Below are positions 25,537 through 25,855 of a DNA stretch of 64,000 bases, piece after piece. Within the stretch, counting starts at the first letter, position 1. Each line of letters starts with the position of its first letter. The position numbers are program-made. The DNA is from Escherichia coli (GTDB lineage Bacteria > Pseudomonadota > Gammaproteobacteria > Enterobacterales > Enterobacteriaceae), in assembly GCF_009931435.1 (NCBI RefSeq), contig NZ_CP043414.1; one strand, written 5' to 3'.

Positions 25537-25855
25537 TTATCCAGCATGTAAAATAATTGTTATGTGGTCGGATGAGTTCTAATTTAGCCGTCGCCGGGGA
25601 AAAGGGAAAAGGGGAATGCGGGGTTTGTGATGGGAATCAAAAAGAATACGCTAGTGGTAATGCCGGATGCGATGCGTGCCGCGTCCTATCCGACCTGGGG
25701 GAACGTACATGTAGGGCGGATAAGGTGTCCACGCCGCATCCGCCAGTGGCGCGGTGCAGATGCCGGATGCGACGCTTGCCGCGTCTTATCCGGCCTACGG
25801 AACGCACATGTAGGGCGGATAAGGTGTTTACGCCGCATCCGCCAGCCGTTGCAAA

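What the first reader, a model, noticed from the sequence alone, without database searches (positions are those of the whole stretch)
25661..25843. Four-unit BIME between convergent fadH and ygjK
Alternating REP units in opposite orientations fill the ~320-bp gap. Such elements bind gyrase/IHF and stabilize upstream mRNA; this is ordinary enterobacterial architecture and the source of the spurious ORFs at 25557-26166.
Basis: partly seen in the sequence, partly recalled or inferred. Interest (0 to 1): 0.15.

Follow-up and report, generated by a model that had tools for sequence, protein, structure and literature searches.

The report
Ordinary four-unit BIME-2 repeat cluster
This is an ordinary cluster of four short palindromic repeats (a BIME-2 element) just after the ygjK gene and just before the promoter of fadH; both genes point the same way, not towards each other, and the number of repeats at this spot varies from 0 to 8 between E. 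coli strains.

Summary
Four REP palindromes sit at 25661-25698, 25711-25746, 25761-25798 and 25810-25845, in alternating orientation. They form two copies of a 99-100 bp module.

They classify as Z2(degenerate)-Y-Z2-Y, which is a BIME-2, not an IHF-binding BIME-1. There is no Z1 unit, no L linker and no IHF core motif.

- fadH (23515-25533) and ygjK (25856-28207) are both on the minus strand, so they are tandem, not convergent. The BIME is ygjK's 3' UTR and lies upstream of the fadH promoter.
- The BIME covers 185 of the 322 bp gap. The other 127 bp on the fadH side includes a promoter segment that is near-identical in every allele aligned, with a 9/10 CRP core.
- IHF binding belongs to BIME-1. 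Only gyrase binding is documented for this class.

The same locus holds 0, 2, 4, 6 or 8 units in complete E. coli genomes; K-12 has 6. The first hairpin starts 12 nt after the ygjK stop codon. The published K-12 "fadH CRP site 1" probe is itself the fadH-proximal REP unit.

The likely role is a 3'-end stabiliser and attenuator, plus a gyrase site. This is inferred from the family and was not tested at this locus. Already known; low interest.

The parts
25810..25845 (-). U4: Y-type REP unit and first hairpin of the ygjK 3' UTR. On the ygjK-sense strand it reads CTGGCGGATGCGGCGTAAACACCTTATCCGCCCTAC. The stem starts 12 nt after the ygjK TAA.
   Evidence: 32/35 to the Y half of the Rfam naRNA4 consensus and 30/34 to the published REP consensus. 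Hairpin -15.9 kcal/mol, z = -3.9. Distance to the stop codon.
25799..25809 (-). Tail-to-tail short linker between CTAC and GTAG (the S position of a BIME-2).
   Evidence: Read from the sequence. It keeps the same position and length in all alleles.
25761..25798 (+). U3: canonical Z2-type REP unit, TGCCGGATGCGACGCTTGCCGCGTCTTATCCGGCCTAC.
   Evidence: 35/37 to the Z2 half of the Rfam naRNA4 consensus, against 30-31 of 34-35 with gaps to Y and 26/29 with many gaps to Z1. Hairpin -22.8 to -23.3 kcal/mol, z about -5.2 to -5.5.
25747..25760 (.). Head-to-head linker between U2 and U3. It resembles linker 'l' of REP325 but carries a 4-nt insertion.
   Evidence: The cmscan alignment to RF02564 places a 4-nt insertion in the linker.
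25711..25746 (-). U2: Y-type REP unit.
   Evidence: 30/34 to the published consensus GCCGGATGCGGCGTGAACGCCTTATCCGGCCTAC (consensus from PMC12306157). Hairpin -15.9 kcal/mol on the sense strand.
25699..25710 (-). Second tail-to-tail short linker.
   Evidence: Read from the sequence; it belongs to the 99-100 bp duplicated module.
25661..25698 (+). U1: degenerate Z2-type unit, proximal to fadH, with the tail CTAC replaced by CTGG. It corresponds by position to the K-12 unit used as the 'fadH CRP site 1' EMSA probe.
   Evidence: 29/37 to Z2. Hairpin -15.7 to -16.1 kcal/mol. The K-12 probe maps onto the fadH-proximal REP (probe sequence from PMC3460868). The CRP core match here is only 6/10.
25626..25641 (-). 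CRP core match TTTGATTCCCATCACA. It corresponds to K-12 'fadH CRP site 2'. It is part of the fadH promoter segment, not of the BIME.
   Evidence: 9/10 to TGTGA-N6-TCACA; only 6 such positions exist in the 128 kb of both strands. The K-12 probe 2 sequence is in PMC3460868. The site is retained in every allele, including those without a BIME.
25534..25660 (-). The 127 bp between the BIME and the fadH ATG: fadH promoter and 5' leader. The aligned promoter segment (from TATTCTTTTTGA to the ATG) is 115-116 nt in every allele.
   Evidence: The segment has the same length and near-identical sequence in alleles with 0, 2, 4, 6 and 8 units. One sigma-70-like match at 25563-25536 on the minus strand.
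25856..28207 (-). ygjK (alpha-glucosidase / glycoside hydrolase), the upstream gene whose 3' UTR is the BIME.
   Evidence: NCBIfam NF007525, 1600.8 bits. RefSeq annotation of the homologous loci.
23515..25533 (-). fadH (NADPH-dependent 2,4-dienoyl-CoA reductase), the downstream gene on the same strand.
   Evidence: A 672-aa ORF, annotated fadH in all matching E. coli genomes.

Best explanation
The feature is a BIME-2: two tandem copies of a ~100 bp module, each holding one Y-type and one Z2-type REP palindrome in opposite orientation. It lies in the 3' untranslated region of ygjK and immediately upstream of the promoter of fadH, which is on the same strand.

Shown here:
- The anatomy and the Y/Z2 class of each unit.
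- The tandem gene arrangement.
- No canonical hairpin-plus-T-run terminator was found after ygjK by a simple pattern scan.
- The first stem starts 12 nt after the ygjK stop codon.
- An allelic ladder of 0/2/4/6/8 units in E. coli, next to a promoter segment of constant length and near-identical sequence.

Inferred from what is published for the family, not tested at this locus:
- RNA level. When the ygjJ-ygjK transcript runs into the array, the four hairpins would block 3'-to-5' exonucleases. This defines and stabilises the ygjK 3' end.
- They would also attenuate read-through, partly via Rho. fadH would then be expressed from its own FadR/ArcA/CRP-controlled promoter rather than from ygjJK transcription.
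- Because the first hairpin is within 15 nt of the stop codon, it may also stall terminating ribosomes and slightly lower YgjK yield.
- DNA level. BIME-2 elements are preferred, transcription-independent gyrase cleavage sites, mostly in the Y units.
- Evolution. The array grows and shrinks by whole 100 bp modules through local duplication or deletion, possibly helped by the REP-associated transposase TnpA-REP (RAYT). It is dispensable, since some strains lack it.
For: Units and periodicity. Enrichment over shuffles.

Classification: U3 35/37 and U1 29/37 to Z2; U2 30/34 and U4 32/35 to Y; poor fits to Z1. The Rfam naRNA4 model covers 25714-25795 end to end at 69.8 bits, above the gathering score of 59.5. 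That model was built from REP325, which PMC4550694 describes as Y + linker l + Z2.

Gene arrangement: both genes are on the minus strand. No hairpin-plus-T-run terminator lies in the gap.

Hairpin stabilities and z-scores. Twelve nt between the TAA and the first paired base.

Allele ladder: gaps of 170 / 225 / 322-325 / 425 / 525 bp hold 0 / 2 / 4 / 6 / 8 units, with a 115-116 nt promoter segment unchanged. Discrete span classes appear across an even-step sample of 5,426 genomes.

Local amplification: all Y units at this locus share a G:C flip of one stem pair relative to canonical Y.

Literature:
- BIME-2 definition and copy-number variability, TnpA-REP activity: PMC3333891.
- Gyrase cleavage enriched in BIME-2, mainly Y units: PMC6379681.
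- A BIME-2 array between tandem genes (REP325) acts as terminator plus stabiliser, and tandem pairs separated by a REP show an upstream expression bias: bioRxiv 10.64898/2026.03.23.713779.
- The 15-nt rule: PMC12306157, citing Liang et al. 2015.
Against: - No expression, 3'-end, Rho or gyrase data for this locus were available. 'ygjK' and 'fadH' did not occur in the two supplementary files of the gyrase map held as text. The 3'-end mapping supplement is not held.
- The REP325 preprint reports that 2-4 hairpin fragments were not sufficient for Rho-dependent termination, and that REP effects on half-life are context dependent. A four-unit array may therefore do little.
- Both Y units in the window carry a C.A mismatch in the inner stem, giving -15.9 against -21.3 kcal/mol for the usual Y unit. 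U1 is degenerate.
- Strains with zero units keep intact ygjK and fadH, so any function is non-essential.
Confidence: 0.9

Rival explanations
1. It is a BIME-1 / RIB-RIP element that recruits IHF, as the reader's 'gyrase/IHF' wording implies.
For: REP units in alternating orientation are present, and IHF binding is a published property of some BIMEs (PMC3333891).
Against: BIME-1 is a single Z1-L-Y copy with a long conserved L linker that carries the IHF site (PMC3333891). Here the units are Z2 and Y, the linkers are 11-14 nt, the module is tandemly repeated, and no WATCAANNNNTTR core lies in 25534-25855. A real BIME-1-like element with a Z1 unit and a ~33-nt AT-rich linker sits at 797-890 in the same window for contrast.
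Confidence: 0.02
2. It encodes a nucleoid-associated small RNA of the naRNA4 family that works with HU to condense the chromosome.
For: The Rfam RF02564 match at 25714-25795 on the + strand scores 69.8 bits, above the gathering score of 59.5. naRNA4 was described as an HU-binding, nucleoid-condensing RNA (PMC4550694).
Against: The model is simply a Y-linker-Z2 unit, so any head-to-head BIME-2 pair matches it. The passing match is on the + strand, antisense to both ygjK and fadH, and no promoter-like site on that strand was found. The sense strand scores 47.6 bits, below threshold. A 2026 preprint from groups that include the original lab reports that REP325 and naRNA4 do not measurably compact the nucleoid (10.64898/2026.03.23.713779).
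Confidence: 0.03
3. The fadH-proximal unit U1 has been co-opted as an upstream CRP-cAMP site of the fadH promoter, so the BIME is partly a regulatory element of fadH.
For: The published K-12 'fadH CRP site 1' probe was reported to shift with cAMP-CRP and to form a class III promoter together with site 2 (PMC3460868). That probe maps exactly onto the fadH-proximal Z2 unit of the K-12 array. Its inner stem-loop CGCGACAAGCGTCGCA matches the CRP core at 7/10.
Against: In the window U1 matches only 6/10. The internal unit U3 scores the same, and about 1.5% of all positions in the window do as well. Strains with no BIME lack site 1 entirely yet keep site 2 at 9/10 and the whole promoter. An EMSA shift of a GC-rich palindrome at high protein concentration is weak evidence.
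Confidence: 0.1
4. It is a selfish or neutral repeat with no locus-specific function. It is maintained and resized by recombination or RAYT activity and merely tolerated in a non-essential spacer.
For: The element varies from 0 to 8 units with no change in the flanking genes or the promoter. Units decay: U1 is degenerate and the Y units carry stem mismatches. TnpA-REP cleaves and recombines BIMEs in vitro (PMC3333891).
Against: This is not exclusive of the main explanation. [quoted passage not shown] The hairpins and a compensatory stem change are maintained.
Confidence: 0.3
5. The + strand ORFs 25557-25955 (132 aa) and 25627-26166 (179 aa) are real genes.
For: They are open reading frames of respectable length.
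Against: They have no NCBIfam match and no CDS is annotated there in any RefSeq genome inspected. Their sequence is REP repeats plus the antisense of ygjK. Their length would change with the 100-bp ladder.
Confidence: 0.01

Closest known systems
BIME-2 family of E. coli REP clusters (Gilson/Bachellier nomenclature; PMC3333891)
   Same: Y and Z2 palindromic units alternate in orientation with short linkers. The Y-Z2 module is tandemly repeated and lies between genes. Copy number at the locus varies between strains.
   Different: Nothing essential. Locus-specific variants are a G:C flip in the Y stem, a 1-nt longer Z2 loop with G/C instead of T/A at the fourth stem position, and a degenerate terminal unit.
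The ygjK-fadH REP cluster of E. coli K-12 MG1655 (NC_000913.3, 3231240-3231664)
   Same: It is the orthologous locus. It has the same flanking genes, the same 12-nt lead after the stop codon, the same Y-variant signature and the same promoter segment.
   Different: K-12 has six units in a 425-bp gap; the window has four in 322 bp. The window lineage is about 8-9% diverged from K-12 across a 601-bp stretch spanning the gap and its coding flanks. Both of its Y units carry an extra stem mismatch.
REP325 / naRNA4 (yjdM-yjdN intergenic BIME-2; Rfam RF02564)
   Same: It is a BIME-2 array between two tandem genes. The Y-linker-Z2 unit aligns over the full 77-nt model. The published role is terminator plus stabiliser in a 3' UTR.
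   Different: REP325 has 12 hairpins (6 modules) against 4 here. The model-sense strand here is antisense to the flanking genes. The linker has a 4-nt insertion. Here the downstream gene has its own promoter between it and the array.
BIME-1 / RIB-RIP (IHF-binding REP pairs)
   Same: Both are built from REP palindromes in opposite orientation.
   Different: BIME-1 uses Z1 + Y with a long L linker that holds an IHF site, and it occurs as a single copy. None of these features is present here. An example of BIME-1 type lies at 797-890 in this window.

Membership tests
REP (repetitive extragenic palindrome) of Enterobacteriaceae | A 30-40 nt imperfect palindrome matching the REP consensus GCCGGATGCGGCGTGAACGCCTTATCCGGCCTAC, with the conserved GTAG/CTAC tetranucleotide at the foot. 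| tested here: met
   Identity to the best reference is 29/37 to 35/37. CTAC/GTAG is present in U2, U3 and U4 and lost in U1 (CTGG). All units fold as hairpins.
REP (repetitive extragenic palindrome) of Enterobacteriaceae | Extragenic and present in many copies per genome. | tested here: met
   The cluster lies wholly within the 322-bp intergenic gap. At least six other REP sites occur in the same 64-kb window, and the motifs are enriched over shuffles.
BIME-2 | Composed of Y and Z2 units, not Z1. | tested here: met
   U2 and U4 fit Y best; U1 and U3 fit Z2 best; all fit Z1 poorly. The Z2 and Y references came from the Rfam naRNA4 consensus and PMC12306157. The Z1 reference came from memory and is corroborated by the in-window unit at 797-826.
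BIME-2 | Units alternate in orientation, are separated by short linkers, and the pair is tandemly repeated. | tested here: met
   The orientations are +,-,+,-. The linkers are 11-14 nt. Period 99-100 bp, 1.9 copies.
BIME-2 | Linkers correspond to the published S and s/l/r motifs. | not testable with these tools
   The consensus sequences appear only in figures or in papers that are not held. The head-to-head linker aligns to linker l of REP325 with a 4-nt insertion.
BIME-2 | [quoted passage not shown] | tested here: met
   0, 2, 4, 6 and 8 units were found at the ygjK-fadH locus in different complete E. coli genomes.
BIME-2 | Bound and cleaved by DNA gyrase in vivo. | not testable with these tools
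   This is a family property from PMC6379681. The terms 'ygjK' and 'fadH' did not occur in the supplementary text held for that paper.
BIME-1 (RIB/RIP) | A Z1 unit plus a long L linker with an IHF site, as a single copy. | tested here: not met
   No Z1 unit, no IHF core in the gap, and the module is repeated.
naRNA4 (Rfam RF02564) | Score at or above the gathering threshold on the transcribed strand. | tested here: not met
   69.8 bits on the + strand, which is antisense to both genes. Only 47.6 bits (below 59.5) on the ygjK/fadH-sense strand.
naRNA4 (Rfam RF02564) | Expressed as a discrete HU-bound RNA. | not testable with these tools
   No expression data are available. The function itself is disputed (10.64898/2026.03.23.713779).

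The most novel reading that the evidence does not exclude
The fadH-proximal REP unit doubles as the upstream CRP-cAMP site of the fadH promoter, as reported for K-12 'site 1'. The strain-to-strain ladder of 0-8 REP units would then tune both catabolite control of fadH and its insulation from ygjJK transcription. That would make a mobile repeat a source of regulatory variation in fatty-acid degradation.
Probability: 0.08. Interest if true: 0.35.

Novelty: already known. Interest (0 to 1): 0.08.

Why it matters
It matters little on its own, because REP/BIME clusters have been described since the 1980s-90s and this locus carries one in K-12 too.

Three practical points follow:
- Annotation. The + strand ORFs across it should not be called, and the Rfam naRNA4 hit should not be annotated as an sRNA gene.
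- Gene context. The flanking genes are tandem, so the element is a 3'-UTR and insulator candidate rather than a bidirectional terminator.
- Literature. A published CRP site of the fadH promoter is in fact a REP unit that many strains lack. That is worth knowing when interpreting fadH regulation.

The clean 0/2/4/6/8 ladder makes this locus a convenient natural series for testing how REP number affects termination and mRNA stability.

Tried and rejected
- Published consensus sequences. I looked for the Y/Z1/Z2 and S/s/l/r consensus in text. Ton-Hoang 2012 has them only in a figure and its supplement is not held. Gilson 1991 is not held. Messing 2012 prints no sequences. I used the Rfam naRNA4 consensus and the consensus quoted in PMC12306157 instead. 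Linker subtypes therefore stay unassigned.
- K-12 annotation. The RefSeq table showed no repeat_region features for this gap, so no REP number could be quoted.
- IHF. The core search found 5 matches in the window and none in the gap, so IHF was rejected.
- Intrinsic terminator. The scan found none in the gap. In the minimum-free-energy fold a weak extended helix encloses U1 and is followed by UCUUUUUGA. It has large internal loops, and the T-run is part of CRP site 2, so I did not count it as a terminator.
- Locus-specific data. The gyrase-site supplement held as text does not mention the locus. The Dar & Sorek supplement is not held. Feng & Cronan 2010, which maps the fadH promoter, is not held. 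The FadR operator and transcription start are therefore not placed from a source. The sequence AACTCATCCGACCACAT at about 25566-25582 (minus strand) looks like the FadR operator from my memory of the consensus only.
- Covariation. Only one compensatory pair was found, probably a single event, so this is weak support.
- One Z2 sequence in alignment A2 (window 22528-22565) was given on the wrong strand, so A2 was not used for pair counts.

Full report
**1. Observation**

The stretch 25661-25845 holds four imperfect palindromes of 36-38 nt.
- U1, 25661-25698: TGCCGGATGCGATGCGTGCCGCGTCCTATCCGACCTGG.
- U2, 25711-25746: inverted; its reverse complement is CTGGCGGATGCGGCGTGGACACCTTATCCGCCCTAC.
- U3, 25761-25798: TGCCGGATGCGACGCTTGCCGCGTCTTATCCGGCCTAC.
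- U4, 25810-25845: inverted; its reverse complement is CTGGCGGATGCGGCGTAAACACCTTATCCGCCCTAC.

U1+U2 and U3+U4 are two copies of one module. The direct repeats are spaced 99-100 bp at 89-94% identity. Tandem Repeats Finder gives period 99, 1.9 copies, score 302.

REP head and tail motifs are far above chance in the window: 34 matches against 8.6 +/- 3.0, and 10 against 0.47 +/- 0.64, with no shuffle reaching either observed count. Each unit folds as a hairpin at -15.7 to -23.3 kcal/mol, z -2.5 to -5.5.

**2. What flanks it**

ORF 23515-25533 (minus strand, 672 aa) is fadH. ORF 25856-28207 (minus strand, 783 aa) is ygjK: NCBIfam NF007525 alpha-glucosidase, 1600.8 bits. ORF 28223-29293 (minus strand) is ygjJ. 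RefSeq annotation of homologous loci agrees.

The two genes are therefore tandem, not convergent. Read on the coding strand, the order is ygjJ, ygjK, TAA, 12 nt, Y, Z2, Y, Z2, a 127-bp stretch containing the fadH promoter, then the fadH ATG.

The gene that does converge on fadH is higA (23054-23470, + strand). That 44-bp gap holds its own small REP-like palindrome.

The BIME covers 185 of the 322 bp. The simple pattern scan found no hairpin-plus-T-run terminator after ygjK.

**3. Class**

The consensus figures of the original papers are not held. I used two references instead:
- the REP consensus quoted in PMC12306157, GCCGGATGCGGCGTGAACGCCTTATCCGGCCTAC;
- the consensus of Rfam RF02564 (naRNA4). 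That model is built from REP325, which Qian et al. describe as Y + linker l + Z2 (PMC4550694).

U2 and U4 fit Y (30/34 and 32/35). U3 fits Z2 (35/37). U1 is a degenerate Z2 (29/37) that has lost the CTAC tail. All fit Z1 poorly.

The Rfam model aligns end to end to 25714-25795 at 69.8 bits, above its gathering score of 59.5.

Y and Z2 units, short linkers and tandem repetition are the definition of BIME-2 (PMC3333891). BIME-1 needs Z1 plus a long L linker with an IHF site. No IHF core occurs in the gap. A BIME-1-like element with a Z1 unit and an AT-rich linker sits at 797-890 of this same window for comparison. Gyrase preference is documented for BIME-2, mostly in Y units (PMC6379681). IHF binding is not expected here.

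**4. Comparative evidence**

The locus is present in essentially all of 5,426 complete E. coli genomes, and matched spans fall into discrete classes about 100 bp apart. Representatives were read directly:

| ygjK-fadH gap (bp) | REP units | Genomes read |
|---|---|---|
| 170 | 0 | GPEC505-623, W224N |
| 225 | 2 | HCM-28C-2 |
| 322-325 | 4 | the window, 2017-02-2CC, 600468; MFDS1022581 by gap length only (323 bp) |
| 425 | 6 | K-12 MG1655; C9 and EA7 by gap length only |
| 525 | 8 | O157:H7 F6294, CEC01311 |

- In the even-step sample of 60 records, every class is common. This is a rough reading of a sample, not a census.
- In all alleles the 12 nt after the stop codon and the 115-116 nt before the fadH ATG keep the same length and near-identical sequence. 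Only the number of 100-bp modules changes.
- All Y units at this locus share GGCGG...CCGCC instead of the canonical GCCGG...CCGGC. This is a compensatory flip of one stem pair. It points to local amplification of one founder rather than repeated insertion.
- This matches the published statement that tandem BIME copies at one locus are well conserved while their number varies between strains (PMC3333891).
- The window itself comes from a minority lineage. Its fadH is at least 95% identical to only 27 of 5,420 genomes.

**5. How it most likely works**

Nothing in this section was measured for this locus; it is inference from the family.

- *RNA level.* The best-studied BIME-2 array between tandem genes is REP325. 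It stabilises the upstream mRNA and attenuates transcription into the downstream gene, partly through Rho. Genome-wide, tandem pairs separated by a REP are biased towards upstream expression (10.64898/2026.03.23.713779). REP hairpins also mark steady-state 3' ends of Rho-dependent transcripts (PMC6061677). The geometry here fits the same role: the array lies straight after ygjK, no canonical intrinsic terminator was found, and an independently regulated promoter follows.
- *Translation.* The first stem begins 12 nt after the TAA. That is inside the 15-nt window in which REPs were reported to stall terminating ribosomes and lower translation (PMC12306157 citing Liang et al. 2015).
- *DNA level.* The two Y units are candidate gyrase cleavage sites.
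- *Caveats.* The preprint found 2-4 hairpin fragments insufficient for Rho dependence. Both Y units in the window have a weakened inner stem, -15.9 against -21.3 kcal/mol. Strains with zero units exist.

**6. A side finding on the fadH promoter**

The K-12 oligonucleotide used as 'fadH CRP site 1' in EMSA (PMC3460868) maps exactly onto the fadH-proximal Z2 unit of the K-12 array.
- Its CRP core match is 7/10 in K-12 and 6/10 in the window's U1. The internal U3 scores the same, as do about 1.5% of all window positions.
- 'Site 2' scores 9/10 at 25641-25626 and is kept in every allele.
- Strains without a BIME have no site 1.

I therefore treat co-option of the REP as a CRP site as unlikely (about 0.1), but it is not excluded.

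**7. The Rfam naRNA4 hit**

It should not be read as an sRNA gene. The passing strand is antisense to both genes, and the sense strand scores 47.6 bits, below threshold. The model is simply a BIME-2 module, and the proposed nucleoid function is now disputed.

**8. The spurious ORFs**

ORFs 25557-25955 and 25627-26166 exist. They have no family match and are unannotated in RefSeq. The REP array is free of stops in two + frames, but most of the longer ORF (311 of 540 nt) is antisense to ygjK coding sequence. The BIME is therefore only part of their cause.

**9. Verdict**

This is a real, ordinary and already-known kind of element: a BIME-2, orthologous to the K-12 ygjK-fadH REP cluster with one module fewer. 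Its gene-orientation claim, its IHF claim and its 'fills the gap' claim need correction.

Noticed in passing
window 797-890: A BIME-1-like element: a Z1-type unit (TGCCTGATGCGCTATGCTTATCAGGCCTAC), a ~33-nt AT-rich linker and an inverted Y unit. The linker region 811-851 (minus strand) passes the Rfam gathering score for ES036/CssrF sRNA (38.4 bits against 37.6).
   Followed up: partly
window 23478-23500: A short perfect palindrome, GCCGGATGCG/CGCATCCGGC, in the 44-bp gap between the truly convergent higA (23054-23470, + strand) and fadH (minus strand).
   Followed up: partly
window 22472-22562: A single tail-to-tail Y-linker-Z2 pair between a 481-aa ORF (21013-22458, + strand, the position of rlmG in related genomes) and higB (22743-23057, + strand).
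   Followed up: no
window 39545-39640, 40369-40404, 42123-42155: Further REP sites: a composite cluster with a Z2 unit, a single inverted Y unit, and a degenerate unit.
   Followed up: no
L005 (K-12 NC_000913.3) 499-546, equivalent to window U1 25661-25698: The published 'fadH CRP site 1' EMSA probe (PMC3460868) is the fadH-proximal REP unit of the BIME. Strains without a BIME lack it, while CRP site 2 is kept in every allele aligned.
   Followed up: yes
L004 and L008 (E. coli GPEC505-623, W224N), 170-bp ygjK-fadH gap: The alleles without a BIME carry a different, non-REP hairpin (GCCGGACG...CGTCCGGC) after ygjK. They also differ in the bases right after the stop codon. This may be the ancestral or an alternative 3' end.
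   Followed up: partly
L009 (E. coli F344) 1294-1598: In this genome the gene next to fadH is an annotated pseudogene ('hypothetical protein', internal stop) instead of ygjK. Only a partial Z2-type unit remains beside the fadH promoter.
   Followed up: no
window 23515-25533 (fadH) and the window as a whole: The window comes from a divergent Escherichia lineage. Its fadH is 90-95% identical to 5,393 of 5,420 complete E. coli genomes and at least 95% identical to only 27.
   Followed up: partly
window 63516-63666 (+) and 41377-41449 (-): Rfam gathering-level hits to SIB RNA (a type I antitoxin sRNA, 144.7 bits) and to a tRNA.
   Followed up: no
window 25597-25613: A short GGGAAAA x2.4 repeat on the + strand (CCCTTTTCCCTTTTCC on the fadH-sense strand) in the fadH leader/promoter region. 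It is present in all alleles examined.
   Followed up: no
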